Origin: a bacterium
GTDB taxonomy: Bacteria > RBG-13-66-14 > B26-G2 > WVWN01
NCBI GenBank assembly: GCA_035529855.1
Contig: DATKVX010000039.1
Coordinates: forward strand, 4,244-68,243
Length of the DNA: 64,000 nt
Reading direction: 5' to 3'
Part shown: positions 3,170 to 26,963 of the stretch, in pieces
How positions within the stretch are numbered: the stretch's first letter is position 1
Layout of the letters: each line of letters opens with the position of its first letter
Made by a program: the position numbers and the translations under genes
Notes under the pieces: generated by a model
Told to the model about the DNA's origin: nothing
Database searches by the model: none
The model's input: only the letters and a program-made list of their open reading frames with translations

Positions 3170-4750
3170 TTATCTTTTCGGAACCAACCGCCAGAAATTA
3201 CTCGGTTCGTAGCGCGGGCCCTCGTACGCGGCGACGAACTCGCGTTCGTACGACGCCAAGAGCTTCTCGGCCTCGGCGCCGGTTACGCCGTACTCCTCGC
3301 GCGCGCCGGGGGCGAGCAAGTCCGTGGAAGACGTCGCCGGCCGGGCGTCGCTGACGTAAACGGCGCGGCCCGCGGCTAATTTATCGTCTATCCGCCTCTT
3401 GAAGTCGTCCGGGTCCCGGACGCCGAAATATATGCCGGCGGTCTCGACGCCCGCGAAGTAGTCGGAATATATCCCCGGCCCGAGGCCGTCCAAACCCGAG
3501 AAGATTACCAGGTCGTCCGGGGCCGTCACGTCATCCACGAACCTCGCGAACGATAAATGCTCGTTGTACTCGGCCTTGGACTCGGGGTATATCGAACCCC
3601 AGAAGTTCCCCGCGAACAGCAGGACCGGCAGCGCGTACAGCACTACCCGGCCTAAGCGCTTCGTCGCCGCGGCGCCGGCACTCGCGTATAAAAAGAATAT
3701 AACGGCGAAGGCTTGCGGCGTCCACCGGTCCGTGCCGCCGGCGTCGCGAAACGTGAAGAAGACGGCGTACGGCAAAAAGAACGCCAACGCCAGCCACGCC
3801 TGCCGGCGCGACGCCCCTCGAGCGGAGAAGCGCGACACGGCCCCCACGAACGCCGCGAGCAACGCCGCCGCGCCCAAAATAATCAAGGCCGCCACCGCGT
3901 ACGACTGCCAGGCCCAATCGCCGGCCAGCACGTCTTTTATCCAACGCAGGCCGAAGACGTTTCGCGCCAACGCGTAAAGGTCGAGCGCGACGTTCACCAG
4001 GCGATAGGTCATGTAGTAATGCGTCCGGCCCGGCGTGCCGAAAGCCCAGCGCCAAAGTTCGCCCGGGCCGCGGTAACCCAAAACGCCGAAGCCTACGACG
4101 ACGTATGCGACGACCCCCGGCGATAAATACGTCAAAACCAAAGCCGGCAAACGCCGCAAATATTTGTCCGGCCTCGAGATGAAGTAGGCCGCGATTAAGA
4201 ACAGAAAGAGCAGGCCGTTAGTTATATGGGTTAAAACGGCGGCGCCGGCGACCGCCGCGCACAACGCCCAGCGGCGGAAATCGCGCGCTTCCGACGCCCA
4301 TTGCGCCGAAAGGAAGGTCGCCATCGCGGCGACGGTACTGACGATTACGCACTCCGCGTTGCACGAGTACGCCCAATACCCGTACGAAAACGCGAGCGCG
4401 AAACTCCCCGCCAAAGACATAGGCCGCGGCGCGCCGGCCTTCCTCAATACCATATAACATAAAACGAAACCGACGCCCCCCACCAAAGCGTCCAGAATTT
4501 GCATAGCGCCGAGCAGCCGGCCGCCGTAACCGAACAACCGCAAGGCCGCTTGGAACGCCAACGCCAAGGGATTATACGAGAGGTGATGCTGGTGCCATAC
4601 GGCGGGGGCCCCGAATTCCGCAATCGCCAATTCCCACCGCATGCCGTCCGGGAAATAATAGGCGGACCGGAATACAAGGTAAATCGCCGCCACGGCTAAG
4701 GCCGCGGCGGCCGCCGTTACACCCCAAAGATATTGCCGCCGCTCGCGCAA
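3170..4750 (-). CDS. GT-C superfamily polyprenyl-phosphate-sugar-dependent glycosyltransferase (ArnT/PMT-like), paralog 1. Putative TTG start.
   Basis: The N-terminal half has more than 10 predicted TM helices and the C-terminal half is soluble. The architecture matches paralogs at 9318, 15021 and 25539. The gene sits inside the liv operon between livK and livH. Confidence 0.6.
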   Translation of the reverse strand: MRERRQYLWGVTAAAAALAVAAIYLVFRSAYYFPDGMRWELAIAEFGAPAVWHQHHLSYNPLALAFQAALRLFGYGGRLLGAMQILDALVGGVGFVLCYMVLRKAGAPRPMSLAGSFALAFSYGYWAYSCNAECVIVSTVAAMATFLSAQWASEARDFRRWALCAAVAGAAVLTHITNGLLFLFLIAAYFISRPDKYLRRLPALVLTYLSPGVVAYVVVGFGVLGYRGPGELWRWAFGTPGRTHYYMTYRLVNVALDLYALARNVFGLRWIKDVLAGDWAWQSYAVAALIILGAAALLAAFVGAVSRFSARGASRRQAWLALAFFLPYAVFFTFRDAGGTDRWTPQAFAVIFFLYASAGAAATKRLGRVVLYALPVLLFAGNFWGSIYPESKAEYNEHLSFARFVDDVTAPDDLVIFSGLDGLGPGIYSDYFAGVETAGIYFGVRDPDDFKRRIDDKLAAGRAVYVSDARPATSSTDLLAPGAREEYGVTGAEAEKLLASYEREFVAAYEGPRYEPSNFWRLVPKR

Positions 4751-4789
4751 GACAGACGTCCCGGGCGCGGCGCGACCGAGCGCGGCGCC

Positions 4790-5998
4790 CTAACTCCCTT
4801 CAGGCGGGCTCGGCTCCGCGGGCGCCGACGCTTTCAAAGCTTCCTTGGCCCGCTCGAGGTCCTCGGCCTGTTTTCGGAAGGGGACGAATTCGCCGTCCTT
4901 CACGACCGCGACGACGAGCGGCTTCATACAATCGCCGTCTTCGTTGAAGTACGTAAGGCCCGCCACGCCTTTGTAACCCTTCTCCGCCGAATCCATCGCC
5001 GCCACGTAGTCGCGAATAGCCTTGCGGTCCGGCCCCGCCTTCTCGATGGCCTCCGCCGCTATCCCCAACGCGTCGTACGTCAGCGCCGCCCACGCGTCGG
5101 GCTCGATACCGTAGCGCTGCTTAAAAGACGTGACGAAGTTCCGCGTCTTCTCTTCCCCCACGGTGGGCAAGAACGGGCAGGTAACGATGACGCCCTCCGA
5201 GGCCTTGCCGGCGTTCGTCACCAGGTCCGCCGAGAGTAGGCCGTCGCCGCCGATGAACGGCGTCTCCATGCCGAGGTTGCGGGCCTGGGTGAGTATCATC
5301 GCCGCGTTGGCGTACAGGCCGGAGACGAAGATGATGTCCGGGTTCTTCGCCATAATTTGCGTAAGCTGCGGCGTGTACTCCTGGGTGTCGCGGACGTAGG
5401 CTTCCTCGCGCACTATCTCCAGGCCGATTTCTTCGGCGCGAGCCGCGAAGGCGTCCCTGAGTCCCCGCCCGTAATCGTCGTTGTCGAAGAAGACGGCGAC
5501 GCGGTTATACCCCAGGACGTATTTAATATATTCGGCGATAAACCGGCCTTGGAAATCGTCGCGGTAGACGTTCCGAAAGGTCCAGTCGCCGCCGGCGCAC
5601 ACCGTAACGTTGGTCGAGCCGGGCGAAAGCTGGAGCACGCCCATCGAGTTATACACTTCTTTGCCCGCGAGCGAACAACTGGAGTTGAAGTGGCCGAGTA
5701 CGGCCAAAACGTTCGGGTTAGAACCCAATTTCTGCGCCGTGTTCGCCGCCTCTTTCGGGTCGCCCTTATCGTCCTGGAACTCGAGCTCGAGGGGGATGCC
5801 GTTGATGCCCCCGGCTTCGTTTATCTCGTCGGCCCGCATCTCGGCCGCCATCCGCAACATTTCGCCGTACTGGGCGCCGTCGCCCGTAAACGGGCCGGTC
5901 ACGCCCACCAGGTAGGTCTTTTCGGCCTTCCTGCCGCAACCGCCGAATACGACTAAAATGAGCGCTGCAACGACGGCAGCCTTGAAAACCCTGCTCAT
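4790..5998 (-). CDS. livK: Branched-chain amino acid ABC transporter substrate-binding lipoprotein (LivK/LivJ family).
   Basis: The signal/lipobox is MSRVFKAAVVAALILVVFGGCG. The body reads YLVGVTGPFTGDGAQYGEM...NVLAVLGHFNSS..., a type-I periplasmic binding fold. The strong RBS GGAGGAGGAA precedes the ATG at 5996-5998. Confidence 0.85.
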   Translation of the reverse strand: MSRVFKAAVVAALILVVFGGCGRKAEKTYLVGVTGPFTGDGAQYGEMLRMAAEMRADEINEAGGINGIPLELEFQDDKGDPKEAANTAQKLGSNPNVLAVLGHFNSSCSLAGKEVYNSMGVLQLSPGSTNVTVCAGGDWTFRNVYRDDFQGRFIAEYIKYVLGYNRVAVFFDNDDYGRGLRDAFAARAEEIGLEIVREEAYVRDTQEYTPQLTQIMAKNPDIIFVSGLYANAAMILTQARNLGMETPFIGGDGLLSADLVTNAGKASEGVIVTCPFLPTVGEEKTRNFVTSFKQRYGIEPDAWAALTYDALGIAAEAIEKAGPDRKAIRDYVAAMDSAEKGYKGVAGLTYFNEDGDCMKPLVVAVVKDGEFVPFRKQAEDLERAKEALKASAPAEPSPPEGS

Positions 5999-6056
5999 TT
6001 TCCTCCTCCTACGCCCAAGCCCGGGGCGCGGCGCGGCCCAAACGAAACCGCTCAAC

Positions 6057-7748: not shown

Positions 7749-7772
7749 CTCGGGCTTTTACTCCGGACGTAT

Positions 7773-8612: not shown

Positions 8613-8694
8613 ATTCTACCCTAATGCCGTTAATACTTGGACTTTTGTAACATCTTTAACGTCCTTTATCAACCATTTTCGGCCGCGGCCGGCG

Positions 8695-8723: not shown

Positions 8724-8750
8724 GCTCGTCGAAGCACACGAGGAGAATAT

Positions 8751-9317: not shown

Positions 9318-10970
9318 TTGGACAAACATATTAGAATATTGCTGCTGATTATATTGGCGTCGGCATTGGGGCTCGTCACGTTGGGCCGCTACGATTTGCG
9401 ACCCTGGGACGAGCCTTTTTACGCGCTCCGCGCCCGGGCCGCAGCGGAAGACGACGCCTGGCTCGACCAGAACGACTACTGCCCCAACCGCATGGCGAAC
9501 GCGTGCTACCCGCCGCTGTTCGTGTGGCTCGCCGGCGCGACGATGAAAGTGCTCGGGCCCAACGAGTTCGCCGCGCGTTTGTGGGCCGCGCTATTGGGCC
9601 TCGCCGCGATACCGATAGCGTACCTCTTGGGTACGCGCCTCTACGGCCGAACCGCCGGCCTGTACGCCGCCGGCGCGCTGGCCGCGCTGCCCGGCTTCGT
9701 GCGCGTGAGCCGCATGGCGCAATTCGACGCCCCGGTGGCGTTTTTCGTTCTGCTGACGTTTTGGCTGTGGGTGGAATACTACCGAAACCGTAGATGGTTA
9801 ACGGCCGTCCTGTGCGGCTTCGCCCTCGGCCTGGCCTTAATGACCAAAATCGCGGTGCCGTTCGTCTTCGTCGCCGCGGCCGCGGCCGCCGTCCTCACCC
9901 CGGGCGGCGGGCCGAACAGGGCCCGGGATGTCGGCGCCCTGGCGCTGGTCGTCGGCGTCGGGCTGGCCGTCGCGGCGCCCTGGCATATCTACATGTACGC
10001 CAAACACGGCGACTATTTCCTCGAGCATTACGCCGGTTACATCCTGCTATACCGCGGCGACGGCATCGCGGCGCAAATAAAACCCGCGACGTCGCCGCTC
10101 CGTTTTCTATTTTATTACAATTCCACCGTAATCTTTTTGAAGGGCGTCGCGCCCTTCTTCTTCGCCGGCCTGGTCGCGCTGCTGGCGTCGAAGGATACCT
10201 GGCGGAACCGGCCCGACCGCCTCGCCGTGGTCCTGTGGGTCGTCTTGTCGCTGGCGGTCCTGATGGTAGTTCGGTTCAAACGGGAGATATACCTCGCGGC
10301 CATATTGGCGCCGATGTGCGTTATAGCCGGCGGTTGGCTCGCGAAATTCGGCCGGGCGCAGCTAGGGAAAGTCGGCGCGGCCGTCCTGGCCGGGGCGGCG
10401 CTCTTCGCCGGCGGCTGGGCGGACTCCTCCCGGGTGCGGGGACCGTTCGTCGCCTGGATTACCCCCGAGTTCGCGCGCGGGAACGGCGGTTGGATGCTCA
10501 CGGCGGCCGCCGCCGCGGCCGCGACCGCGCTGGCCTTCGCCTTCTACTTCTGGTACCGGCGGGCGCCGAAGGCCGCCGCCGCAACCCTCCTGGTCGCGAT
10601 ATACGTCCAGCTCGCGACGGGGGCCGTAGGCCAACTCGTGTACGGCCGGCGGGACTGGCAGCCGCTCAAGGGCCGGCTGGAGGACGCGCGCTACGCCGGC
10701 GTGGTGATGGTAACCGCCGACGAGTTGCCGACGCACCTCTTCTACTTCCACCGCCTTATGCCGGGCTTCGGCGGCGCCGAGCGGTTGATGTTGAACCCGA
10801 CGTGGACGCGGGTGGACCCGGCGTACTTGGAGGAGCATTACCGGGAGGGCTATCTAATTCTTCTGGATAAGGAGACGAGGCCCGAGCTGGCGGCGCGGCT
10901 GGCGGCCGGCCTCGAGCGAAGCGGCGGCTCCCGCGTGGAGTCGGGGCGCTATATCCTATTCATTAAATAG
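9318..10970 (+). CDS. GT-C glycosyltransferase (ArnT/PMT-like, GT39/GT83-type), paralog 2. TTG start with a GGGAGG RBS.
   Basis: The N-terminal motif is RPWDEPFYALRA, the 'DE' acidic motif of ArnT/PMT. It has about 12 TM helices plus a C-terminal soluble domain. Confidence 0.7.
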   Translation: MDKHIRILLLIILASALGLVTLGRYDLRPWDEPFYALRARAAAEDDAWLDQNDYCPNRMANACYPPLFVWLAGATMKVLGPNEFAARLWAALLGLAAIPIAYLLGTRLYGRTAGLYAAGALAALPGFVRVSRMAQFDAPVAFFVLLTFWLWVEYYRNRRWLTAVLCGFALGLALMTKIAVPFVFVAAAAAAVLTPGGGPNRARDVGALALVVGVGLAVAAPWHIYMYAKHGDYFLEHYAGYILLYRGDGIAAQIKPATSPLRFLFYYNSTVIFLKGVAPFFFAGLVALLASKDTWRNRPDRLAVVLWVVLSLAVLMVVRFKREIYLAAILAPMCVIAGGWLAKFGRAQLGKVGAAVLAGAALFAGGWADSSRVRGPFVAWITPEFARGNGGWMLTAAAAAAATALAFAFYFWYRRAPKAAAATLLVAIYVQLATGAVGQLVYGRRDWQPLKGRLEDARYAGVVMVTADELPTHLFYFHRLMPGFGGAERLMLNPTWTRVDPAYLEEHYREGYLILLDKETRPELAARLAAGLERSGGSRVESGRYILFIK

Positions 10971-12582: not shown

Positions 12583-12674
12583 GTTAAAGCACCTCGTAGT
12601 CCGTTTGCTCAACCGGCTCGCCGCCGTCGCGTCGAACCGGCCGGCCTAACCACATCCCATAAACGTCCATAACC

Positions 12675-14518: not shown

Positions 14519-15016
14519 TTATCGGCGCCGGAATTCCCTCTCCAGTATCGGCCCGACCTTCTGGAACGCCTCGAACGGCTTGACCGACAACTTCTTCCCG
14601 TACCACCCGTTCAATAATGCGACGTACTTCTTCACTTCCGGGTTCTGGTAGACGCGGATGAAGCGGTACGCGAAGTATCTGATGTCGTTCTTATTTATAT
14701 TGTCCATTACGTACATGCGGGCGATGTTCTCGTAGACATAGAGCAGTTTATCCAGCTTTTTCTCCTGGTCGGTTTGCAGCACGCTCTCGTCGAACTTGAA
14801 CCGCTCGTAATCTATTTCGTAATACAGCTCCACCAGGTCCGGGTCCAACAAGTAATCCCGGGCGAGCGTAATTAAAAACTCGGCGCGTTTCTGCAGAAGG
14901 TTCTTCCGCATCTGAACGAAGTTCGTTATCAGGCCGACGAACGTCAGCAACAACAAACTGGCCAGGATAACGTTGCCCATCGTAATTTCCGGGTTCCACA
15001 CCAACATAATGTTCAC
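14519..15016 (-). CDS. Hypothetical single-TM protein. GC is lower than the neighbours. A 4-bp gap after the GT-C/TPR gene suggests they share an operon.
   Basis: MNIMLVWNPEITMGNVILASLLLLTFVGLITNF... I recognised no family. Confidence 0.45.
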   Translation of the reverse strand: MNIMLVWNPEITMGNVILASLLLLTFVGLITNFVQMRKNLLQKRAEFLITLARDYLLDPDLVELYYEIDYERFKFDESVLQTDQEKKLDKLLYVYENIARMYVMDNINKNDIRYFAYRFIRVYQNPEVKKYVALLNGWYGKKLSVKPFEAFQKVGPILEREFRRR

Positions 15017-15020: not shown

Positions 15021-17201
15021 TTACCGGACTACCAGGCGCTCGAAATCGGACCTGCCGCGCAGCGACGCGAGGTCCCCGTCCTCTGCAGCCATTTTCTTAT
15101 AACGGGCCGGCGCGAGTTCTACGGCGCGGCCTAGCTCCGCCATCGCTTCGTCGCCGCGGCCTTGCTGTGCCAGCGCGCACGCCAGGTTGTACCTCGCCCG
15201 GGGGTCTTCGCCCATCTTTAAGATAACGCGGTACTCCCGCGCCGCCGCGGCGTAGTCGCCCATTTGATGGAGGACCTCGGCCAGCCTGTGCCTGACGTCC
15301 AGGGCCTTCGGCTCGTAGTACGCCGCCTCCTCATAATAGTCGCGGGCCTGCTCGAGGTCGCCCCGGTCGCGGGTGACGTTGCCCAGCTCGTACCAGGCCG
15401 CGCTGAAGTTGGGCTGGAAGTGAACGGAACGTTCTAATTTCTCGGCGGCGCCGTCGATGTCGCCTTCCCCCAAAAGGAGTTTACCGTAGAAATAATACGC
15501 CCGGCCGTCCTCGGGCTCCAAAGTTAGCGCGCGCTCGTAGCACTCGCGCGCCCCCTCCACGTCGCCGGCCTGCGCGCGGATGTTGCCTATGTTATTCCAC
15601 GCCTTGGCGTACGTGGGTTCTACCTTGGCCACCAGCCGGAAGTAATATTCCGCCTTTTCCATATCGCCCCGCCGCGCGGCGATGATGCCGAGGTCGTTGA
15701 GCGTGTTCATGCCGGCGATTTCCCAATCCGCCTCCAGCGCCGCCTCGTACTCGCGCTCGGCGGCGTCGAAGTCGCCGTCGGCGAGGTATACCGTACCCAT
15801 CGCATAATGCCCTTGCGCCTCGAACTTCGACTGCCGGCCTATTCCGAACGGGTCCGCATCGCAGAATACGAACAGCGCCGCGAGCGCCGCGACGCGCCAA
15901 CCGATTCGTACGCCGCGCCACCGCCGCAAATTTTCCCAGAAATAGAAGAAAGCCGCGGCGGCGAAAACGCAAAAATAAGGCACGACCGGCATCCGGAAAC
16001 GCGCGTTCACGAAGAACAATATCACCGACGCCGAATAGGCGACGACATAAATATACGACGGCGCCAATTGCCGCCACCGCCGCGCATATAGAATCATTCC
16101 GAAGAAGGCGAACGGTAAAACGACGTACAGGCTCACCGGGTCGTATTTCAACACCCAGAAATGCTTTTTCAAATAATAGAGGTCGAAATTGTTCGCGACC
16201 TCGTACGCGTTCGTGAAGAAATAAGTTTTCTGCGCTAGTAACCTGAGCGCCGTCAACGGCTCCGTGCGACCGAACTCGGCTACGCGAGCCAGGTAGTAGT
16301 GATCTACTTCGGAACGGCTTAGCGGCCTGCCGACGGCCTCCTCCGCCATCCGTATCGATTCGTAATGGCCCCGCCACCAGTCGCCGTGGGTCCCCGGCAC
16401 CATCGCCGTCATACCGTCCGCTTCGGGGTTGTTGCCTATCCACAGGTTGACGCCGCCCTGCCAGGATATCAGGACCGGCTCCCGGGCGACGGCGTAGTTC
16501 CGCGCCGCCACCGCGCCCACGAACGCCCCGGCGAGGCCGTACAAGATAGCGAGCGATACGATTATACGTCGCCGCGGCAAACGCTTCCCGGCCCGGGCCG
16601 CGACGTACGCCAGCCAGATGAAGGCCGCCACCGCGAGAACGTTGGGCCTGGTTATAGCGGCCAACCCCAGCGCTACGCCCGCCGCCGCGGCCCACCGGTA
16701 ATTGCCGGTCTTCGCCGAACGCACGACGGCGTACACGAACGCGAGCCCCAGCGGGACCTCCAGCACCACCAACAACAATTCAACGTCGTAAAAGACGGCG
16801 GTCCATATCGTGCCCAGCGCGACCGCCGCTACGGCGCCCACCCGCCGGTCGAAGAACTCGCGGCCCAGGAGGAAACAAAGCCCCGCGCTTAAGCCGCCTA
16901 CGAAACCCTGCGCTACGCGCGCAAACAGGACCGACCCTTTACCCAACCAGTACAATAACCCCAAAAAGTACGGGTACAGCGGCGCCCGGAAGAAAACCTC
17001 GTCCCCCCAGAAGTCGCCGCCGGCGATGCGACGCGCCCACGCGTCGTGGTAGGACATATCCATAACGGGGGTCCGGTAGTACGCGTGGTCGCCGGCCGTC
17101 GCCAGCAAGAGCAACCGGACGGCGACGGCCCACACCACGACGCCGGCCAGTATTAACCAATCGCGCCGCGTCCAACCCTTATCCACTTCTTCCGTTACCA
17201 T
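15021..17201 (-). CDS. GT-C glycosyltransferase (ArnT/PMT-like) fused to a C-terminal TPR array, paralog 3.
   Basis: The N-terminal 480 aa or so are polytopic (...FWGDEVFFRAPLYPYFLGL...). The C-terminus carries at least 6 TPR repeats (AWNNIGNIRAQAGDVEGARECYERAL..). Confidence 0.7.
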   Translation of the reverse strand: MVTEEVDKGWTRRDWLILAGVVVWAVAVRLLLLATAGDHAYYRTPVMDMSYHDAWARRIAGGDFWGDEVFFRAPLYPYFLGLLYWLGKGSVLFARVAQGFVGGLSAGLCFLLGREFFDRRVGAVAAVALGTIWTAVFYDVELLLVVLEVPLGLAFVYAVVRSAKTGNYRWAAAAGVALGLAAITRPNVLAVAAFIWLAYVAARAGKRLPRRRIIVSLAILYGLAGAFVGAVAARNYAVAREPVLISWQGGVNLWIGNNPEADGMTAMVPGTHGDWWRGHYESIRMAEEAVGRPLSRSEVDHYYLARVAEFGRTEPLTALRLLAQKTYFFTNAYEVANNFDLYYLKKHFWVLKYDPVSLYVVLPFAFFGMILYARRWRQLAPSYIYVVAYSASVILFFVNARFRMPVVPYFCVFAAAAFFYFWENLRRWRGVRIGWRVAALAALFVFCDADPFGIGRQSKFEAQGHYAMGTVYLADGDFDAAEREYEAALEADWEIAGMNTLNDLGIIAARRGDMEKAEYYFRLVAKVEPTYAKAWNNIGNIRAQAGDVEGARECYERALTLEPEDGRAYYFYGKLLLGEGDIDGAAEKLERSVHFQPNFSAAWYELGNVTRDRGDLEQARDYYEEAAYYEPKALDVRHRLAEVLHQMGDYAAAAREYRVILKMGEDPRARYNLACALAQQGRGDEAMAELGRAVELAPARYKKMAAEDGDLASLRGRSDFERLVVR

Positions 17202-17277
17202 TGCGGGAATATAACACCGGCCTTACGCCTTCCTCAACACAAATAAAGGTTTGCCTCCGCCCGCGTTTTTACATATT

Positions 17278-20060: not shown

Positions 20061-20079
20061 AACGTCCGTCGCAGCGCCT

Positions 20080-21159
20080 TTAAACGAGGTCCGGCCGCTC
20101 CTCCTCCAACAGCTCGACGACCTTCCGTACGTCCTGGCCGGCCCCCTTCGGGTATACGAGGACGACGTCGCCGGCGTCGACGACGACGTTGTTGTCCACG
20201 CCGAACAACACTACCGGCCGCCGGCCGCCGGCGAGGACGATGTTCCCCACGCCCCCCAGCTGGTAAACGTCGCCCCGGCCTATGTTGCCGCGGTCGTCGC
20301 GCGGCAACACGCGCTCGAGCGCGTCGAAGGAACCGATGTCGTCCCACCCGCAATCGGTTTCGACCACCTCGAACGCGGGCAACTTCTCCATAAAGGCGTA
20401 ATCCACGGACGTCGCCTCGAACCTCCCGTACAAATCCGCCACTTTCGCCGTCTCGCCCGCCGCCAACGGCCTCTTCAGGCTCTTCGCGACCGCGAACTGG
20501 TCCGGGCAACACTCGGCGGCCACCTCGAGGAAGCGGTCGGCGCGCCAAACGAACATCCCGCTATTCCACAAGTAGTCCCCCGAGGCCAGGTAATCGCGCG
20601 CCGTCGCCTCGTCCGGCTTCTCCTTGAACGCGAGGCCTTGCCGAACGCGCGGCGCGCCGGCCTCCAAAACCTCGCCGCACTTGACGTAACCGTACCCGGT
20701 TTCGGGACGGTCCGGCTTTATGCCGAAGGTAACTATGGCCCCCTCCGCGGCGCGCCCGAAACCGGCCGCCAACGCGCAGCGAAAAGCGTCCCCGTCGTCG
20801 ACGGCGTGGTCGGCCGGCAGGACGAGGACCGCGGCTTTCGAGCCGAGGCGGTCCGCTACCTCCAGCGTCCCCAAAACGCAACCGGGCCAGGTGTTGCGCG
20901 CCGCCGGCTCGGCGACGAAGTTGGCCAGCGGTATCTCCCGCAACAGCGGCCGCGCCTGGAGCAAGATGTCCTCTTCGGCTATGACGTATATCCGCGACGG
21001 CTCGAGCAGCGGCGCGACGCGCTCGTACGCGTCCTCGAGCAGCGTTCGGTCCGTCACCAACGAAAGAAACTGCTTCGGCCTGTCGCGCCGGGAGAGAGGC
21101 CAGAGCCTCGTTCCCCGGCCGCCGGCCATAATCAAGGCCGCCCTGCGTGGGCCCGGCAT
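20080..21159 (-). CDS. manC: Mannose-1-phosphate guanylyltransferase (GDP-mannose pyrophosphorylase).
   Basis: LIMAGGRGTRLWPLS...PKQF is the nucleotidyltransferase signature. A C-terminal left-handed helix is present. A strong AGGAGG RBS precedes the start. Confidence 0.8.
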   Translation of the reverse strand: MPGPRRAALIMAGGRGTRLWPLSRRDRPKQFLSLVTDRTLLEDAYERVAPLLEPSRIYVIAEEDILLQARPLLREIPLANFVAEPAARNTWPGCVLGTLEVADRLGSKAAVLVLPADHAVDDGDAFRCALAAGFGRAAEGAIVTFGIKPDRPETGYGYVKCGEVLEAGAPRVRQGLAFKEKPDEATARDYLASGDYLWNSGMFVWRADRFLEVAAECCPDQFAVAKSLKRPLAAGETAKVADLYGRFEATSVDYAFMEKLPAFEVVETDCGWDDIGSFDALERVLPRDDRGNIGRGDVYQLGGVGNIVLAGGRRPVVLFGVDNNVVVDAGDVVLVYPKGAGQDVRKVVELLEEERPDLV

Positions 21160-21163
21160 ATGG

Positions 21164-21985
21164 TTACCTCCTGACCTCGGCGTCTAAATACGGCTCGAGT
21201 AATGCGTACATCTCGGCGAACTCGCCCGGCGAAAAGCTCTCCGGCCTGGCGGCCGGCTCGAAGCCGGCCTCGCGGAGCTTGGAAGCCACCTCCGCCGCCG
21301 AAAGGCCGCCGCCCAGAAGGGTGGCCAGCCGATTGCCGACCTTCTTACGCCGCGCGGCGAAGACGAAGTCCACGAAGTGGCCGAAGAGCTCCGACCCCGC
21401 TAACGGGACCGCCTGCTCGTCGTAGTACCGGTACGTTACGAGGGCGGCGTCCACCTCCGGCTTCGGCTCGAAGGCATCGGCCGGTATCACGAACGCGATA
21501 TACGGTTCGCCCCGGGTTTGCATCTTTACCGACAGCGCGCCGTAAGCCTTGCCGCCGGGCGGGGCGCAGATGCGCTCGGCGACCTCTTTCTGGAGCGTAA
21601 GCACCCAGCGCTTAAGCTGCCGCCGGTGCTCGCCCAGGAGTTTAAGTATCGGCCCCGTAATATAAAAAGGGACGTTACCGACCGCCACCACGCGCCGGCC
21701 TTCCGGAATCAGCTCGGCCCAGTCAACGTCCAGGATGTCGCCGTGCACTATGGTAAGGTTGTCGTACCGGTCGAAGTCGCGCGCGGCGGCGTCTACGAAG
21801 CGCTCCTCCAATTCGACCGCTACCACTTCGCGGGCGCGCCGGACGAGGTGCTGCGTCAGCTCGCCCCGCCCCATTCCGATTTCGAGCACGCTCTCGTCGG
21901 GCGCTATCTCCGCGGCGTCGGCGATGCGCCGCAATACGTCGTTATCGACCAGGAATACCTGGCCTTTACGCACCCGCTTTACCAC
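21164..21985 (-). CDS. rsmA: 16S rRNA (adenine1518/1519-N6)-dimethyltransferase.
   Basis: KGQVFLVDNDVLRRIAD...VLEIGMGRGELT... shows the KsgA motifs. Confidence 0.85.
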   Translation of the reverse strand: MVKRVRKGQVFLVDNDVLRRIADAAEIAPDESVLEIGMGRGELTQHLVRRAREVVAVELEERFVDAAARDFDRYDNLTIVHGDILDVDWAELIPEGRRVVAVGNVPFYITGPILKLLGEHRRQLKRWVLTLQKEVAERICAPPGGKAYGALSVKMQTRGEPYIAFVIPADAFEPKPEVDAALVTYRYYDEQAVPLAGSELFGHFVDFVFAARRKKVGNRLATLLGGGLSAAEVASKLREAGFEPAARPESFSPGEFAEMYALLEPYLDAEVRR

Positions 21986-23946
21986 TTAATAAAGTAACCC
22001 GTTTCCAGCGTAAAAACCGCCGGTTTAAAACCCGGCTTATACCGCAGCGACGTCTCGACCTCGCGGCGGGCGTCGTCCTTCCGCCCGAGCTCGTGGTAAC
22101 AGTCGGCAAGCAAATAACGCGTGAAGGAATCGGTCGGCTCGAGCGCCACGGACCTCTCGAGATAGGGTACGGCGCCGGCGTAATCCTTTTTAAGGTAAAA
22201 GACGGTCCCCAAGTTATGTTGCACCTCGTGCGAACGGCGGCCTACGCGGTCGGCGAGCGTAAAATACTCTTCGGCCCGGCCCTCGTCGCGGGGGCGAAAA
22301 CGCGTATACAAATCGTAGAGGAAATTCCCCACCGTCCCCTGCGCCCAGTGGTCCAAGTACGTGGCGGGCGGGTCTACGCCGCGAATTACGTAACGGCCTA
22401 TGACGTCGGCGCGGGGAGGCGGCGAACCGCGTCGTACAACCCGGTAAACCGCGCCGTCCTTCGCGAGGCCGTAGCCCCACGACGCTACGAAATCGTACGG
22501 GTAGAGGAAATAATAATCGTGGCGTTTGTCCGAGAGAACGTCGCTCATAATTTCGTAGAAATATTTGACTATTACGTTGACCGGCGCGTGCGACAGGTCC
22601 CGGCCGCCGAAGTCGAAGACGTCGAAATAATTCGCGTTACCCGTGGTATCGACGAAGAAAATGTCGGGCCGCGCGTACTCCAACGTCGTCAACGCCTGTA
22701 TGCCGGTCGTAGCCGCCGAGTTCTCCTCGCCCAGGAAAACGAAGTCGCCGTACCCTACCGGACGTAAGTAATTCGCCCCGAAATCCCGGACGTACGGGTA
22801 GTAAGTCCTGTCCGCCTGGTAAAAGCGCGTAAGCACGGGCGACAGAGCGACGACCGCCGCCGGCGCCAAAAAGACGTAAGCCGCAGCCCGTCGCCATTTG
22901 GCCAACGCCTCGCCGACCCGCGTTACCGCGACGCCGGCGCATATCGCCGTCAACATGTAGAACGGGAAGTACCACGCCCGAAAGCCGAAAGACGGGTAGT
23001 TGACGATGAGGATCAACGTGAAGAAAGAGATGCCGACGAAATACAGGAAATAGCCCCGGCGCCGCCACGCCAGCCAAGCCGCGCCGACCGCGGCCGCGCC
23101 TATACCCACCCACCGGAATTGGTCCAAATATAACCACGCCGCGGTCTTGGCGCGCCACCCGACTACCGCCCAGGGCGCGCTGAACATCTGGCTCTGGAAC
23201 TCCTTACAGGTTAAATGGAAGTACAAGCCGTACAGGGTGCGCGGCTTGCCCCAATTCTGGACGACGCCGGCCGCGGACCGCACCGGCAGGTAAAGATAAG
23301 TGGACATCGCGAGCAGCCACAACGCCGCCGCTACGTAGAGGTGGCGGGGGCGAAGGCCGGCGGCGCGCCGCTGCCAAACGACGAACGCCGCGTACGGAAT
23401 CAAGAGGACCACTTGCTGGGGATGGTTGGTGCAAGCTATACCGAACGCGAAGGCCGCGGCGTAAAACCACCTGACGTCGGCGCGGCGGCGCCACGCGAAA
23501 AGCGCGAGCATCGTCGCCGCCGTGAGCGCCATGTTCATCGTGTAAACTTCGCACGTCGTGGATTGAATCCAAACCGTAGGGGCCACCGAATACGCGAGGC
23601 CCGCGACGGCCGCGCCCACCGAAGTAGCCCAACCGCCGTCCGCTATTTCGTAAACCAGCAGAACGACGAAAAAGGCCGTAGCCGCGCCCGCGACCGCCGA
23701 AAAGAGGTTCATCCCCACGATGGGGGTTACCCCGGGCAGCATCGCGAAGAGATAACACGCTAAATGCCACCCCGGGAACCCCGGCGGCACGCCGCTGCCG
23801 AGGAGGCCGACGGAACGGTTGAACAGGCCCGAGTCCTGCCAGAAGACGTCGCCGCACAGCGTTTTGGCGTATACGACGAACGCCGCCAAAGCGACCGCCG
23901 CGGCTACGTAGAAACGCTCGCCGGGCAAGGGGAATCTAGCTTTCAT
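21979..23946 (-). CDS. DUF2723 (TMEM260-like) polytopic membrane protein with C-terminal TPR repeats; putative protein glycosyltransferase.
   Basis: The N-terminal 400 aa or so are polytopic (...DVFWQDSGLF...CTNHPQQVVLL...). The C-terminus has TPR repeats (HNLGTVFYLKKDYAGAVPYLERSVALEP..). Confidence 0.6.
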   Translation of the reverse strand: MKARFPLPGERFYVAAAVALAAFVVYAKTLCGDVFWQDSGLFNRSVGLLGSGVPPGFPGWHLACYLFAMLPGVTPIVGMNLFSAVAGAATAFFVVLLVYEIADGGWATSVGAAVAGLAYSVAPTVWIQSTTCEVYTMNMALTAATMLALFAWRRRADVRWFYAAAFAFGIACTNHPQQVVLLIPYAAFVVWQRRAAGLRPRHLYVAAALWLLAMSTYLYLPVRSAAGVVQNWGKPRTLYGLYFHLTCKEFQSQMFSAPWAVVGWRAKTAAWLYLDQFRWVGIGAAAVGAAWLAWRRRGYFLYFVGISFFTLILIVNYPSFGFRAWYFPFYMLTAICAGVAVTRVGEALAKWRRAAAYVFLAPAAVVALSPVLTRFYQADRTYYPYVRDFGANYLRPVGYGDFVFLGEENSAATTGIQALTTLEYARPDIFFVDTTGNANYFDVFDFGGRDLSHAPVNVIVKYFYEIMSDVLSDKRHDYYFLYPYDFVASWGYGLAKDGAVYRVVRRGSPPPRADVIGRYVIRGVDPPATYLDHWAQGTVGNFLYDLYTRFRPRDEGRAEEYFTLADRVGRRSHEVQHNLGTVFYLKKDYAGAVPYLERSVALEPTDSFTRYLLADCYHELGRKDDARREVETSLRYKPGFKPAVFTLETGYFIKW

Positions 23947-23964
23947 AACAAAAGATAATCCGCC

Positions 23965-25407
23965 CTACGCCGCCAGGAATATCAAACGAGCGACGAAGAG
24001 CGCGGCCAGCACGTACGCCAGCGGGCTTACCTCCCGCCACCGCCCCGCGACGACCATCACTATGGGGTACGATATGAAACCGAGCGTGATGCCGTTCGCG
24101 ATCGAGAACGTAAACGGTATGGCGATCAAAGTCACAAACGCCGGGATGGCCTCCACCGGGACGTCCCACTTGATATCCTTGAGCCCCGTCAACATAAACG
24201 AACCGACGATTATGAGCGCCGGCGCCGTTATGGGCTGTAGGAAGCGCGTCATCTCGAAGAAGCCGCGCACCGACGCGCCGCCGAGTACGCCCTCCAGCGG
24301 GGCCCCCTGCGTTACCATTATGCCGCCGCCGACCATCCTGGCCAGCGGCAAGAACAGCGGCGCGACCAAGAAGAGCGCCGCGGTTACGACGTTCGCGAGG
24401 CCGGTGCGGGCGCCGGCCGCGATGCCGGCCGCGGACTCGATATAGGAAGTCGTCGTCGACGTGCCGAAGGCCGCGCCCACCGACGTCGCGACGCCGTCGG
24501 AAATAAGGGCGCGGTTGATGCGGGGCATCCGCCCCTTTTCGTCCAAGAACTTGCCCTGCTCCGCTATGCCCAGGAAAGTCCCCAGCGTATCGAACATATC
24601 CATAAAGAGGAAAACGAAAATTACGTTTAGAAGGCCCAACTTGAACGCGCCCGCCAGGTCCATCTGTAAGAACAACGTCGCTTTGGGAAGCGGCCCCACT
24701 TCGACCAGGTGTTTCAGCGGCCCGACGAAAACGGGCGCGACACTTTCCGGAACCGCAACGACGCCGGTGTACTCGACCTGGCCGAAGACGAGCGCCGCCG
24801 CGGCGGTGAGCAGCATCCCGTAGAGCAACGCGCCCCGCCACTTCAATACCAACATTATGGCGGTTACGACGAGGCCGAAGACGGCGAGCAGCGCCGCGGG
24901 GTGCGTCAGGTCGCCCAACGTGACGAACGTGGCCTGATTCAATCTAATAAAACCCGCCTTCTCGAAGCCGATAAACGCGATGAACAGGCCGATGCCCGCG
25001 GCTATGGCCTTCCGCACCGACGGGGGCAGCGCGTCGACTATGAGCGAGCGGATGCGCAGTAGGGTCAATACCGTGAATATCACGCCCGATATGAAGACGG
25101 CGCCGAGCGCGGTCTGCCACGGCACCCCCATCATCAGGACGACGGTGTACGCGAAGTACGCATTAAGCCCCATCCCCGGCGCCTGCGCTATGGGGTAATT
25201 GGCCAGAAGGCCCATGAGGAGCGTACCGGTCGCCGCCGCGACGCAGGTCGCGACGAGGGCGCCGCCGAAATCCAAACCCGCGGCGCTCAAAATCGCCGGG
25301 TTCACGAAAATAATGTACGACATCGTCATGAAAGTGACGACGCCGCCCAAAAGCTCGCGACGAACGGTGGAGTTTCTTTCTCTTATATGGAAAAATCGCT
25401 CGAGCAT
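23965..25407 (-). CDS. NCS2-family nucleobase permease (adenine/guanine/hypoxanthine, PbuG-like).
   Basis: ELLGGVVTFMTMSYIIFVNPAIL... resembles the AzgA/PbuG-type N-terminus. About 13 TM helices. Confidence 0.75.
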   Translation of the reverse strand: MLERFFHIRERNSTVRRELLGGVVTFMTMSYIIFVNPAILSAAGLDFGGALVATCVAAATGTLLMGLLANYPIAQAPGMGLNAYFAYTVVLMMGVPWQTALGAVFISGVIFTVLTLLRIRSLIVDALPPSVRKAIAAGIGLFIAFIGFEKAGFIRLNQATFVTLGDLTHPAALLAVFGLVVTAIMLVLKWRGALLYGMLLTAAAALVFGQVEYTGVVAVPESVAPVFVGPLKHLVEVGPLPKATLFLQMDLAGAFKLGLLNVIFVFLFMDMFDTLGTFLGIAEQGKFLDEKGRMPRINRALISDGVATSVGAAFGTSTTTSYIESAAGIAAGARTGLANVVTAALFLVAPLFLPLARMVGGGIMVTQGAPLEGVLGGASVRGFFEMTRFLQPITAPALIIVGSFMLTGLKDIKWDVPVEAIPAFVTLIAIPFTFSIANGITLGFISYPIVMVVAGRWREVSPLAYVLAALFVARLIFLAA

Positions 25408-25538
25408 AGCGACCTCTCAAACGGCATCAATATACCAAATGAAGCCCTACCGCGCAAACGATTTCGCCCGCGGCCACCCTCGGCCTTGACCGCCGCCGAG
25501 CCGTATATTATGATGCGCGGGCGAGAGGAGTCGAGCCG

Positions 25539-26963
25539 TTGGACGCTAAAAAAACCGTAGCCGCGGCCGTATTGGCCGTCATCTTCGTACTCGCCGTCGC
25601 GCAGATCTGGTACCGCCCGGTCGACCGCGACGAGGGTTTCTGGCTCTATACTTCGTGGCGCTTCGCGGAAGGCGACCTTCCCTACCGCGACTTCGCCCTG
25701 CCGCACATGCCGCTCGCGTCGCTCTACTACGCCGGCGCAATAAAGGTCTTCGGGCCTTCGCTCTACGCGCTGCGCGGTTTGAACGTCGCGCTGTTCGCCG
25801 TCTCCGCGGCCTTCCTCGGCTTAGCGGTCGCGCGGCGCTTCGGCGGGCCGGCGTCGTTCTTCGCCGTCGTCTTTCTCGGTTCGTCGTCGCTCGCGCTTAC
25901 CTGGCTCGTCCCGGTCAAGGCGTACGCGCCGGCTGCGGCCGCTTTAACTTTCGCCGTCGCCGTCTGGCTCTGGCCCGGCGATATCGAGAAAACGGGTTTA
26001 GGCCGGGCGCTGGTCATAGGCGTCTTGCTGGGCGCGGCCACGCTGGCGCGGCTAACGGTCGCGGTAACCCTCCCGGCCGCGGCCTTCGGCATTTGGCTCT
26101 CGCTACCCCGGCGGCCGGGCCGGCGGGCGGCCGCCGTCGGCGCGCTATGCATCGGCTTCTTGGCCGTAACGCCGATAATCGTCTACTTCCGCGCCGTCGC
26201 GGGGGACGCGTTCGCTTTTAACGTTTGGGGCATACACAAGCTGTTCCTGGGGGGCGGCGCGACGGGGCGATGGGCCGCGGCGTTGAGTCTCCTGCTGCCG
26301 CCGGACCCGGCGATTCTAATCGTCGCCGCGTTTCTGGCGCTTCGAGCGGAGGGGCGTAAAATTTTAGCGTTCCCCCTCGCCGCCGGCGTCCTCATCCTCC
26401 TCGGCCACCTCGTACCCGGCAGCAGCCAACGCCAATACTTCGTACCGGCGGTACCCGCCTTCGCCGCCGCCGCGGGCGTCGGCGCGGCGTGGTTATGGCG
26501 CCGGAAAAAGGCCGTCGCGCTGGCGGTGGTGGGCGCCGCGGCCTTCGTCGGCGCCGCCCGACCGGCCGCCAAGGTCGTGTTCGACCGGGCGCACAAAGAG
26601 CTCGTCGGCCCGGCGGAAGTGTACGCCGCGGCCCGCCTACTGGCCGACGCCACGCGTGAAAGCGACGTCGTGTACACCGGTTGGCCCGGCTACGCCGCCC
26701 TCGCCCGGCGGCGGGTATTGCCGGGTTGGGAGCTCGGCTACTTCACGCACCGCGTCGGCGAAAGGCTGAACGCCGCGGACCGCCGCCGCTACCACTTGAT
26801 GACGTACGACGAAACGGCGGAGGTACTCGCCTCCGGCAAAGCCCGGTTCGCGCTCGACGGCCTGGACACGCCCGAGGCGCTCGAGCCGACCTTAGCCGAA
26901 CACTTCGAAAAAGCGACTTCCCGCCGGGGCGTAACGCTTCGGCGATACAAAGCCGGCGAATAA
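25539..26963 (+). CDS. GT-C glycosyltransferase (ArnT/PMT-like), paralog 4.
   Basis: YRPVDRDEGFWLYTSWRF is the acidic DE motif near TM1. About 11 TM helices plus a C-terminal domain. Confidence 0.65.
   Translation: MDAKKTVAAAVLAVIFVLAVAQIWYRPVDRDEGFWLYTSWRFAEGDLPYRDFALPHMPLASLYYAGAIKVFGPSLYALRGLNVALFAVSAAFLGLAVARRFGGPASFFAVVFLGSSSLALTWLVPVKAYAPAAAALTFAVAVWLWPGDIEKTGLGRALVIGVLLGAATLARLTVAVTLPAAAFGIWLSLPRRPGRRAAAVGALCIGFLAVTPIIVYFRAVAGDAFAFNVWGIHKLFLGGGATGRWAAALSLLLPPDPAILIVAAFLALRAEGRKILAFPLAAGVLILLGHLVPGSSQRQYFVPAVPAFAAAAGVGAAWLWRRKKAVALAVVGAAAFVGAARPAAKVVFDRAHKELVGPAEVYAAARLLADATRESDVVYTGWPGYAALARRRVLPGWELGYFTHRVGERLNAADRRRYHLMTYDETAEVLASGKARFALDGLDTPEALEPTLAEHFEKATSRRGVTLRRYKAGE

What the first reader, a model, noticed from the sequence alone, without database searches (positions are those of the whole stretch)
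3170..26963. Expansion of GT-C (ArnT/PMT-like) glycosyltransferases, two fused to TPR arrays, plus a DUF2723/TMEM260-like TPR protein and manC
Five paralogous polytopic GT-C enzymes lie at 3170-4750, 9318-10970, 15021-17201 (TPR-fused), 25539-26963 and 21979-23946 (DUF2723, TPR-fused). Mannose-1-phosphate guanylyltransferase (20080-21159) sits immediately beside the DUF2723 gene and rsmA. TPR-fused GT-C enzymes are the architecture of eukaryotic TMTC and TMEM260 protein O-mannosyltransferases, whereas bacterial PMT-like enzymes are characterised mainly in Actinobacteria. This density suggests an extensive and uncharacterised protein or glycan O-glycosylation (mannosylation?) capacity.
Basis: partly seen in the sequence, partly recalled or inferred. 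Interest (0 to 1): 0.6.

Follow-up and report, generated by a model that had tools for sequence, protein, structure and literature searches.

The report
Five unrelated-looking GT-C membrane glycosyltransferases
A 24-kb stretch of an uncultured Coatesbacteria-like bacterium really does encode five membrane glycosyltransferases of the lipid-linked-sugar (GT-C) type, two of them fused to TPR repeats. They are five ancient, separate families in separate operons rather than a recent expansion, the TPR fusion is common in bacteria, and their sugars and targets are still unknown.

Summary

Corrections to the finding:
- Only two of the five carry TPRs: C (15021-17201) and D (21979-23946).
- The five are not detectable paralogues by BLASTP. 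They are five old families, each in its own transcription unit.
- Only the E...D...C block is conserved, in about 10 related genomes. A lies 540 kb away in the complete relative CP070633. B has no orthologue in the relatives' loci examined.
- None is an ArnT orthologue, and no arn genes or GT2 lipid-sugar synthase lie nearby.
- PMT_2+TPR fusions like C are very common in bacteria: 13,103 clusters at 50% identity matched, and 61 of 69 sampled had TPRs.

What each protein looks like:
- D is a true TMEM260-like (DUF2723) protein with an invariant loop-1 Asp. It sits in an operon with rsmA and manC. Its in-genome paralogue sits beside an exported GH113 (mannanase-family) gene. Together these give weak, lineage-restricted support for mannose.
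- E heads an LPS-like operon (GT9 plus a membrane sulfatase-like protein).
- A Rv3806c-like polyprenyl-phosphoribose synthase at 38422-39309 offers a rival pentofuranose donor.

Verdict: new members of known kinds, of modest interest.

The parts
3170..4750 (-). GT-C 'A': a lineage-restricted, highly divergent GT-C protein (526 aa) and the last gene of a conserved orf279-MCP-periplasmic binding protein-A unit.
9318..10970 (+). GT-C 'B': a PMT_2/PMT-type (GT39/GT83-like) glycosyltransferase of 550 aa, monocistronic and not found in the relatives' loci examined.
   Evidence: PMT_2 at 1.3e-21, PMT at 1.1e-15, STT3 at 1.4e-5. ArnT equivalog scores 29 bits against a cut-off of 567. PDB ArnT 5ezm reaches only E 0.26. 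hhalign to the C family gives 97.1%, with D31-E32 ('PWDEPFY') aligned to C's D48. No orthologue appears in L001, L004, L021, L086 or L087.
15021..17201 (-). GT-C 'C': a PMT_2 domain (about 11 TM helices, with a large loop at 235-352) fused to a C-terminal array of about 7 TPRs (457-726).
   Evidence: Pfam PMT_2 at 28.0 bits (above the 26.1 cut-off) plus many TPR families. The family is very large: 13,103 representatives at E<=1e-3, with 61 of 69 sampled carrying TPRs. D48, H52 and W55 are nearly invariant; P74 and Y76 are invariant. Arg-rich loops at 375-378 and 423-436 put the TPR array outside the cytoplasm (inference). No DUF1736 hit.
14519..15016 (-). A 165-aa ORF with one N-terminal TM helix, 4 bp downstream of C and probably co-transcribed with it. 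Function unknown.
   Evidence: No Pfam or NCBIfam hit. A 162-aa gene follows the C orthologue in CP070633. The gap is 4 bp.
21979..23946 (-). GT-C 'D': a TMEM260-like/DUF2723 glycosyltransferase with about 11 TM helices (10-378), an alpha/beta domain (385-520) and about 3.5 TPRs (533-649).
21164..21985 (-). rsmA/ksgA, the 16S rRNA dimethyladenosine transferase. It overlaps the end of D by 7 bp.
   Evidence: RrnaAD at 3e-45. The overlap is shown. It is conserved next to D in L001 and L005-L014.
20080..21159 (-). manC, a mannose-1-phosphate guanylyltransferase with the GMP domain only. It is the last gene of the permease-D-rsmA-manC operon.
   Evidence: NTP_transferase at 7.8e-36 plus ManC_GMP_beta-helix. 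TIGR01479 scores 274 bits over positions 3-348 of 467, so there is no PMI part. It is conserved beside D only within this lineage.
23965..25407 (-). A xanthine/uracil-family permease, the first gene of the D operon (18-bp gap).
   Evidence: Xan_ur_permease at 8e-37. It is conserved in the lineage.
25539..26963 (+). GT-C 'E': a 474-aa GT-C protein and the first gene of an LPS-core-like operon.
   Evidence: PMT_2 at 25.5 bits over the whole model (2-160 of 160), just below the cut-off. Some homologues reach PF13231 and are named 'GT39 family' or 'ArnT-like' by their sources. hhalign to the C family gives 96.8% (E 2.8e-10) and to the D family 86.7%. D29, R30, D31 and E32 are nearly invariant, and D31 aligns with C's D48.
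26989..30724 (+). The genes downstream of E in the same operon: a GT9 heptosyltransferase-like gene (26989-28134), a 244-aa lipoprotein (28195-28929), and a sulfatase/alkaline-phosphatase-family protein with an N-terminal hydrophobic region of about 170 aa (28931-30724).
   Evidence: Glyco_transf_9 at 3e-35. TIGR02195 scores 119 bits, below the 134.6 cut-off. Sulfatase at 2e-47 over residues 183-453, with weak EptA/MCR and YejM hits. Gaps are 25, 60 and 1 bp, and the sequences are. The operon is conserved in CP070633.
37359..39309 (-).
   Evidence: NF008977 scores 256.5 bits (cut-off 234) and TIGR00374 66.8 bits (cut-off 43.2). M. tuberculosis DPPRS 8j8j matches at E 2.4e-31 over the full length, with the NDxxDxxxD motif present as 'NDVLDARYD'. 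The role of such enzymes with GT-C partners is described in PMC11127046.

Best explanation
The region is ordinary chromosome from a Coatesbacteria-like uncultured bacterium whose lineage carries an unusually varied set of GT-C glycosyltransferases. It is not one glycosylation island.

General mechanism (inferred from the fold and family): each of the five proteins is an independent polytopic inner-membrane enzyme. Each takes a sugar from a polyprenyl-phosphate-linked donor on the periplasmic face and transfers it to an extracytoplasmic acceptor. An acidic residue in the first periplasmic loop does the chemistry: A D35/E40, B D31-E32, C D48, D D38, E D31-E32.

The five work in different pathways (also inferred):
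- E, with the GT9, lipoprotein and membrane sulfatase-like genes, most likely decorates LPS core, lipid A or another envelope glycolipid.
- C and D hold a periplasmic TPR module that recruits a protein or polymer acceptor, as TMTC and TMEM260 do in the ER. D is co-transcribed with manC and most plausibly uses polyprenyl-P-mannose.
- A travels with a chemoreceptor and a periplasmic binding protein. B is an accessory PMT_2 enzyme. Their acceptors are unknown.

What is shown: fold, family, conserved residues, operon structure and synteny. What is inferred: donors, acceptors and topology.
For: GT-C identity of all five:
- Pfam.
- hhalign to the diverse C-family profile: D 99.3%, B 97.1%, E 96.8%, A 92.5%.

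Conserved loop-1 acidic residues. Those of B, C and E align with each other.

Independence of the five:
- No BLASTP similarity between the GT-C domains.
- Five separate transcription units.
- A is 540 kb from C-D-E in CP070633.
- B is missing from the relatives' loci examined.
- Further distinct GT-Cs occur elsewhere in the lineage: the D2 paralogue, an A-like gene in L021, and a PMT_2 gene in L087.

E operon.

D operon with manC is conserved in about 10 genomes. The D2 paralogue lies next to an exported GH113 in 8 of 9 genomes. ArnC-like GT2 genes lie beside distant DUF2723 genes in 13 loci, which fits a polyprenyl-P-sugar donor for this family.

Topology and layout of D parallel TMEM260 as described in PMC10214176. 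C's layout of 7 TM, loop, 4 TM, then TPR parallels the TMTC topology in PMC7801869.
Against: - No enzyme activity, donor or acceptor is known for any close homologue of the five.
- No polyprenyl-P-sugar synthase of the GT2 type was found in the 64-kb window or in the lineage loci. The donor side is therefore open.
- The manC link is lineage-specific and runs through an unrelated housekeeping gene (rsmA), so it may be fortuitous.
- TPR domains also bind polysaccharide-export partners, so a TPR does not prove a protein acceptor.
- The E operon assignment to LPS rests on sub-threshold GT9 and sulfatase hits.
- The topology of C was deduced from hydropathy and charge only.
Confidence: 0.7

Rival explanations
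1. One reading: the five genes together form an extensive protein O-mannosylation capacity. manC supplies GDP-mannose, and the TPR-fused enzymes act like TMTC and TMEM260 on protein substrates.
Confidence: 0.15
2. At least one of the five GT-Cs is the transferase of a pentofuranose system. The Rv3806c-like synthase at 38422-39309 makes polyprenyl-P-ribofuranose, the adjacent flippase-like protein moves it outwards, and a GT-C adds ribofuranose or an epimer to a surface glycan or protein. This would resemble the Citrobacter three-component system, mycobacterial Emb/Aft, or P. aeruginosa TfpW.
For: The synthase passes the NCBIfam equivalog cut-off (256.5 against 234). It matches M. tuberculosis DPPRS at E 2.4e-31 with the catalytic NDxxDxxxD motif. 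It is the only lipid-sugar donor synthase recognisable in the window. Known systems of this kind end in a GT-C enzyme (PMC11127046). In 4 of 42 metagenomic loci a C-family-like GT-C lies within 3 kb of a synthase homologue.
Against: No GT-C is adjacent to the synthase here; the nearest, E, is about 10 kb away. No MATE flippase, ribose-5-P phosphatase or DprE1/E2-type epimerase was found in the window. In most homologous loci the neighbours are Glycos_transf_4, Wzy_C, MatE or transporters rather than GT-C.
Confidence: 0.3
3. The genes are ArnT-type lipid A/LPS-modifying transferases, that is, aminoarabinose or related cationic-sugar transferases.
Against: No protein approaches the ArnT equivalog threshold. 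BLASTP against E. coli ArnT gives E>1 for all five. No ArnB, ArnC, ArnA, ArnD, ArnE or ArnF-like genes lie in the window or lineage loci. ArnT has no TPR. This reading is plausible for E alone (about 0.35) but not for the set.
Confidence: 0.05
4. One or more of the weakly matching proteins, especially A, is a GT-C-fold protein without transferase activity. It would be a scaffold or substrate-binding subunit like PIG-U/GAB1.
Against: Both families keep conserved acidic and basic loop-1 motifs: A has invariant R38, W39 and E40 and nearly invariant D35; E has nearly invariant D29, R30, D31 and E32. True transferases score higher than PIG-U against A.
Confidence: 0.1

Closest known systems
TMEM260 (DUF2723, Pfam PF11028), the metazoan protein O-mannosyltransferase for IPT domains
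   Same: D matches PF11028 well above threshold. It has about 11 TM helices and an invariant Asp (D38) in the first extracytoplasmic loop, where TMEM260 has D52. Its C-terminal extramembrane domain ends in TPRs.
   Different: D is bacterial, so the donor would be undecaprenyl-type rather than dolichol-type. No IPT-domain client is evident. Mannose specificity is untested. The lineage has a second paralogue (D2). Bacterial homologues are mentioned but uncharacterised in PMC10214176.
TMTC1-4 (GT105), ER O-mannosyltransferases with a C-terminal TPR
   Same: C has a PMT_2-type GT-C core of about 11 TM helices, a large loop after TM7, and a C-terminal TPR array predicted to lie on the non-cytoplasmic side. 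This is the TMTC topology of PMC7801869.
   Different: C gives no DUF1736 (TM7-TM8 loop) Pfam match. It belongs to a very large family found mainly in uncultured-organism sequences. None of the members whose source names were looked up has a name beyond 'TPR repeat protein'.
ArnT (GT83), the lipid A aminoarabinose transferase
   Same: It has the same fold and is among the best structural neighbours of A and D. B and E share the D-E motif after TM1 that E. coli ArnT also shows ('QPDETRY'; output). E lies in an LPS-like operon.
   Different: There is no equivalog-level sequence match. BLASTP gives E>1. There is no arn operon. ArnT has 13 TM helices and no TPR.
PMT/POMT (GT39), protein O-mannosyltransferases of fungi, animals and Actinobacteria
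   Different: No MIR domains are present. B's PMT match covers only part of the model (positions 62-192 of 245). Identities to the solved structures are 8-15%.
Three-component pentofuranose systems (PPPRS + flippase + GT136 GT-C; Kelly et al. 2024) and the mycobacterial DPPRS/Emb/Aft pathway
   Same: A full-length PPPRS homologue with the catalytic motif is encoded in the window next to a flippase-like membrane protein, and GT-C enzymes lie within 35 kb.
   Different: The flippase-like protein belongs to the LPG_synthase_TM family, not MATE or SMR. No phosphatase or epimerase was found. No GT-C is adjacent. None of the five was tested against GT136.

Membership tests
GT-C superfamily | Polytopic membrane core homologous to, or superimposable on, known GT-C enzymes. 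| tested here: met
GT-C superfamily | Conserved acidic catalytic residue in the first extracytoplasmic loop after TM1. | tested here: met
   D38 is invariant in D. D48 is nearly invariant in C. D29, D31 and E32 are nearly invariant in E. In A, E40 is invariant and D35 nearly invariant. B has D31-E32, aligned to C's D48. A catalytic role was not tested.
GT-C superfamily | Uses a polyprenyl-phosphate-linked sugar donor. | not testable with these tools
   Only indirect evidence exists. ArnC-like GT2 genes lie next to distant DUF2723 genes, and a PPPRS gene is in the window.
ArnT (GT83) | Sequence reaches the NCBIfam ArnT equivalog score. | tested here: not met
   Only B hits NF009784, at 29.3 bits against a cut-off of 567. 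BLASTP of E. coli ArnT against all five gives E>=1.
ArnT (GT83) | Accompanying arnBCADEF genes for the Ara4N donor. | tested here: not met
   tblastn with E. coli ArnC, ArnE and ArnF finds nothing in the window or in the lineage loci held. Pfam scans of the window ORFs found no ArnA-, ArnB- or ArnD-type domains.
TMEM260/DUF2723 (PF11028) | Pfam PF11028 match above the gathering score. | tested here: met
   D scores 78.4 bits against a cut-off of 24.2, covering profile positions 1-174 of 179. A scores 20.4 bits, below the cut-off.
TMEM260/DUF2723 (PF11028) | 11-TM core followed by a non-cytoplasmic C-terminal domain with TPRs. | tested here: met
   The AF2 secondary structure of D shows helices 10-378, an alpha/beta domain at 385-520, and seven TPR-type helices at 533-649. 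This was compared with the description of TMEM260 in PMC10214176. Sidedness is inferred from the odd TM count.
TMEM260/DUF2723 (PF11028) | Protein O-mannosyltransferase activity. | not testable with these tools
   Only context is available: the manC operon and the GH113 gene next to the paralogue.
TMTC (GT105) | DUF1736 signature in the TM7-TM8 loop. | tested here: not met
   C has no PF08409 hit at E<=0.001. DUF1736 is not among the 25 families hit by most of the 69 sampled members.
TMTC (GT105) | PMT_2-type core plus a C-terminal TPR array. | tested here: met
   C has PMT_2 at 73-224 and TPRs at 457-700. Of 69 sampled family members, 61 have TPRs.
PMT (GT39) | PMT Pfam domain plus luminal MIR domains. 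| tested here: not met
   B hits PF02366 at 58.3 bits, but only over profile positions 62-192 of 245. No MIR domain appears in any of the five. From my own knowledge, actinobacterial PMTs also lack MIR, so this excludes only the eukaryotic type.
Three-component pentofuranose system | PPPRS (UbiA-family polyprenyl-phosphate phosphoribosyltransferase). | tested here: met
   The gene at 38422-39309 scores 256.5 bits on NF008977 (cut-off 234). It matches 8j8j at E 2.4e-31 and carries the NDxxDxxxD motif.
Three-component pentofuranose system | Adjacent MATE/SMR flippase and a dedicated GT-C (GT136-type) in the same locus. | tested here: not met
   The neighbours are an LPG_synthase_TM flippase-like protein, an SQHop-cyclase-like protein, Nramp and PilZ. 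No GT-C lies within about 10 kb.

The most novel reading that the evidence does not exclude
D and its in-genome paralogue D2 would be bacterial counterparts of TMEM260. They would be TPR-guided protein (or glycan) O-mannosyltransferases of the periplasm. D is fed through the co-transcribed manC, and D2 is paired with an exported GH113 mannanase-like enzyme. This would make the Coatesbacteria/Zixibacteria-like lineage a prokaryotic model for the third eukaryotic O-mannosylation pathway. C would represent the equally uncharacterised and very large bacterial sister group of TMTC.
Probability: 0.2. Interest if true: 0.6.

Novelty: new member of a known kind. Interest (0 to 1): 0.3.

Why it matters
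Bacterial GT-C enzymes outside ArnT, PglB and the actinobacterial PMT/Emb/Aft set are almost wholly uncharacterised. Yet the TPR-fused PMT_2 family seen here has thousands of members, and DUF2723 is the bacterial root of the human disease gene TMEM260.

This window adds three things:
- A clear example of a lineage that stacks at least seven distinct GT-C families.
- Two independent mannose-related neighbours for the DUF2723 pair: manC and GH113.
- A divergent GT-C family (A) that current Pfam thresholds miss.

It does not by itself reveal a new mechanism. The organism is uncultured, so testing would need heterologous expression.

Tried and rejected
- **PDB sequence searches.** Searches with B, D, the N-terminus of C, and profiles of the A and E families gave nothing useful beyond a weak ArnT hit and TPR hits.
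- **Fold library.** The afdb50 library, which would have allowed direct comparison with the human TMEM260 model, was not available.
- **Hydropathy TM prediction.** My crude prediction was too noisy to count helices reliably. I used AF2 secondary structure for A and D, and charge bias for C.
- **Recent duplication.** I considered it and rejected it. BLASTP shows no similarity between the GT-C domains.
- **One conserved island.** Rejected. A is 540 kb from the others in CP070633 and B is absent from the relatives' loci examined.
- **PPPRS normally sits beside a GT-C.** I tested this on 42 metagenomic loci. Only 5 had a GT-C hit. The large polytopic neighbours turned out to be Glycos_transf_4/CoA_binding_3 fusions, P-type ATPases, MatE, Wzy_C and others, so the idea is not general.
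- **manC adjacency as a family trait of DUF2723.** Rejected. It holds only within this lineage.
- **Source names.** Source names for ten C-family representatives gave only 'TPR repeat protein'.
- **RNA elements.** No tRNA or Rfam element lies in the window.


Full report
**What is there.**
- Pfam places B (9318-10970) firmly in PMT_2/PMT.
- D (21979-23946) falls in TMEM260-like/DUF2723, with a C-terminal TPR.
- C (15021-17201) is in PMT_2, just above threshold, with a long TPR array.
- A (3170-4750) and E (25539-26963) score just below the PMT_2 cut-off, at 25.4 and 25.5 bits against 26.1.
- manC (20080-21159) and rsmA (21164-21985) are as described.
- Only C and D carry TPRs, so the title's count of TPR proteins is one too many.

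**Are A and E really GT-C?** I collected homologues of A, D and E and of the GT-C domain of C, and built alignments A1-A4.
- Profile-profile comparison links every family to the diverse C-family profile: D 99.3% (E 1.5e-20), B 97.1%, E 96.8%, A 92.5%.
- AlphaFold models of A and D are confident (pLDDT 84.9 and 84.2, pTM 0.87 and 0.86).
- For D, the order is Pmt4 25.0, ArnT 24.0, AglB 23.0, ALG12 22.4, PglB 20.3, followed by TPR proteins.
- Each family keeps an acidic residue a few residues after TM1: D38 invariant in D, D48 in C, D29/D31/E32 in E, D35/E40 in A, D31-E32 in B. Those of B, C and E align with each other.

The observation 'five GT-C enzymes' therefore stands.

**Not an expansion of paralogues.**
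- All-against-all BLASTP finds no significant similarity between the five catalytic domains. C and D match only in their TPRs, and B-E reaches only E 0.007. These are five anciently separated families, not products of local duplication.
- They sit in five transcription units:
  - orf279-MCP-periplasmic binding protein-A
  - B alone
  - C-orf165, divergent from a GHL10 gene with a C-terminal motif that looks SPOR-like (my reading of the sequence, not tested)
  - xanthine/uracil permease-D-rsmA-manC (gaps 18, -7 and 4 bp)
  - E-GT9-lipoprotein-membrane sulfatase-like protein

**Source and synteny.**
- The window comes from an uncultured bacterium. D is 72% identical to a protein of the complete Candidatus Coatesbacteria genome CP070633.1. 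Closer relatives are labelled 'Zixibacteriota' or simply 'bacterium'.
- The block E-GT9...permease-D-rsmA-manC...GHL10-C is conserved in about 10 species-level genomes.
- The A unit keeps its own MCP/binding-protein neighbours. In CP070633, however, it lies about 540 kb from D.
- B has no orthologue in any of the five relatives' loci I examined. In two of them, BLIP-like and hexapeptide-repeat genes occupy its place.
- The lineage carries further GT-Cs:
  - a second DUF2723 paralogue (D2, about 40-46% identical to D) in every genome
  - an A-like gene near D2 in CP070633
  - another PMT_2 gene near A in a JGI contig
- The density in the window therefore reflects a GT-C-rich lineage plus partly conserved synteny, not a dedicated island.

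**How common is the TPR fusion?**
- The GT-C domain of C alone has 13,103 relatives at E<=1e-3 among 1.84 billion 50%-identity representatives, and 2,397 at E<=1e-30. Most of the best 150 are 600-800 aa long.
- Of 69 sampled, all match PMT_2 and 61 match TPR_2.
The architecture itself is widespread in bacteria.
- C does not hit the TMTC-specific DUF1736 model. Its inferred topology does mirror that described for TMTCs in PMC7801869: 7 TM helices, a large conserved loop at 235-352, 4 more TM helices with Arg-rich cytoplasmic turns at 375-378 and 423-436, then the TPR array.

**ArnT test.**
- None reaches the ArnT equivalog score. B is the only hit, at 29 bits against a cut-off of 567.
- E. coli ArnT, fetched as L085, gives BLASTP E>=1 to all five and only a superfamily-level hhalign match to the C profile.
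- E. coli ArnC, ArnE and ArnF find nothing in the window or in the lineage loci.
- The refutation condition is not met, as far as 64 kb plus the related loci allow.

**Donors.**
- No GT2 polyprenyl-P-sugar synthase is present in the window.
- manC adjacency to D is conserved only within this lineage. None of about 60 distant DUF2723 loci (Chloroflexota, Rubrobacter, Altiarchaeales, Eisenbacteria and others) has a manC within 10 kb.
- One small additional hint for mannose: D2 lies directly downstream of a GH113 (beta-mannanase family) gene with an N-terminal signal-anchor-like hydrophobic stretch, in 8 of 9 genomes.
- In 13 distant DUF2723 loci an ArnC-like GT2 lies within 10 kb, and in three it is directly upstream. 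This fits the expected lipid-phosphate-sugar donor for this family.
- A rival donor is encoded in the window itself. The gene at 38422-39309 passes the NCBIfam equivalog cut-off for decaprenyl-phosphate phosphoribosyltransferase (256.5 against 234). It also aligns end to end with M. tuberculosis DPPRS 8j8j (E 2.4e-31), including the NDxxDxxxD motif.
- That gene sits next to a flippase-like LPG_synthase_TM protein.
- Such synthases feed GT-C enzymes in mycobacteria, in P. aeruginosa pilin glycosylation, and in the Citrobacter three-component system (PMC11127046).
- The link is only a lead, though. No GT-C is adjacent here. Among 42 metagenomic loci of at least 5 kb with homologous synthases, only 5 had a detectable GT-C. 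The other large membrane neighbours were Glycos_transf_4 fusions, Wzy_C, MatE and transporters.

**Most likely mechanism.** Each protein is a periplasm-facing transferase that depends on a polyprenyl-P-sugar donor. I put this at about 0.85 for the class.
- E most plausibly modifies LPS core, lipid A or another envelope lipid, given its GT9 and membrane sulfatase/EptA/YejM-like partners (about 0.35-0.4).
- D and C use periplasmic TPRs to bind a protein or polymer acceptor. Protein is about as likely as not. For D, mannose as the sugar is about 0.3.
- A and B have unknown acceptors. A's fixed association with a chemoreceptor and binding-protein unit is unexplained.

**Comparison and novelty.**
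- D is a member of the TMEM260/DUF2723 family by Pfam and by layout.
- C is a member of a very large, unnamed bacterial PMT_2+TPR family that works like TMTC in architecture but fails the DUF1736 membership test.
- B is a generic PMT_2/PMT enzyme.
- A and E are lineage-restricted GT-C families that current Pfam thresholds miss.
- None is an ArnT orthologue.
- Overall these are new members of known kinds. Interest is modest. The finding highlights an uncharacterised but already visible area (bacterial TPR-GT-C and DUF2723 enzymes) without exposing a new mechanism, and the organism is uncultured.

Noticed in passing
window 37359-40356 (-): An operon-like run: an Rv3806c-like polyprenyl-phosphate phosphoribosyltransferase (38422-39309; NF008977 at 256.5 bits; 8j8j at E 2.4e-31; NDxxDxxxD motif), a flippase-like LPG_synthase_TM protein (37359-38402) and a weak squalene-cyclase/prenyltransferase-like protein (39337-40356). 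Nramp lies upstream and PilZ downstream. It may make a polyprenyl-P-ribofuranose donor.
   Followed up: partly
L015-L022, L002/L003 (e.g. L002 8912-9982 and 10001-11938): Every genome of the lineage has a second DUF2723 paralogue (40-46% identical to D). In 8 of 9 genomes it lies directly downstream of a GH113 (beta-mannanase family) gene with an N-terminal signal-anchor-like hydrophobic stretch.
   Followed up: partly
window 3170-8612 (-); L004, L086, L087: The GT-C protein A is always the last gene of a conserved unit: a roughly 279-aa unknown protein, a methyl-accepting chemotaxis protein, one or two periplasmic binding proteins (Peripla_BP_6), then A. The unit is conserved down to 53% identity. 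Why a GT-C should travel with a chemoreceptor is unexplained.
   Followed up: partly
window 17251-18702 (+): The GHL10 (DUF187) putative glycoside hydrolase, divergent from C, has a signal peptide. Its C-terminal sequence looks SPOR-like ('YRVYAGAYDERPAAAELRDKLARLGY'), which would suggest peptidoglycan binding. The C-GHL10 adjacency is conserved across the lineage.
   Followed up: no
window 60861-62899 (-): An Eco29kI-family restriction endonuclease and an N6/N4 DNA methylase sit in a low-GC island (GC 0.44 against about 0.63 elsewhere). This is probably a horizontally acquired restriction-modification system.
   Followed up: no
window 44729-49414 (+): A 1561-aa sensor histidine kinase with seven GAF domains and a PAS domain.
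   Followed up: no
window 12675-13148 (-) and 18703-20025 (+): A nickel superoxide dismutase and a multihaem cytochrome (Cytochrome_C554/c7-like) are interspersed among the GT-C genes. A DUF1028 protein with a TPR-like tail lies at 11494-12612.
   Followed up: no
L058, L070, L076, L066 (about 1-2 kb upstream of the DUF2723 match at 10001): In several Chloroflexota genomes an ArnC/Dpm1-like GT2 gene lies immediately upstream of the DUF2723 gene. This is a candidate donor-synthase/GT-C pair worth testing in a more tractable phylum.
   Followed up: no
L021 782-2908 (+); L087 19469-21172 (+): Additional GT-C genes occur in relatives: a 709-aa A-like paralogue about 7 kb from D2 in CP070633, and a 567-aa PMT_2 protein about 8 kb from A in a JGI contig. 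Neither has a counterpart in the window.
   Followed up: no
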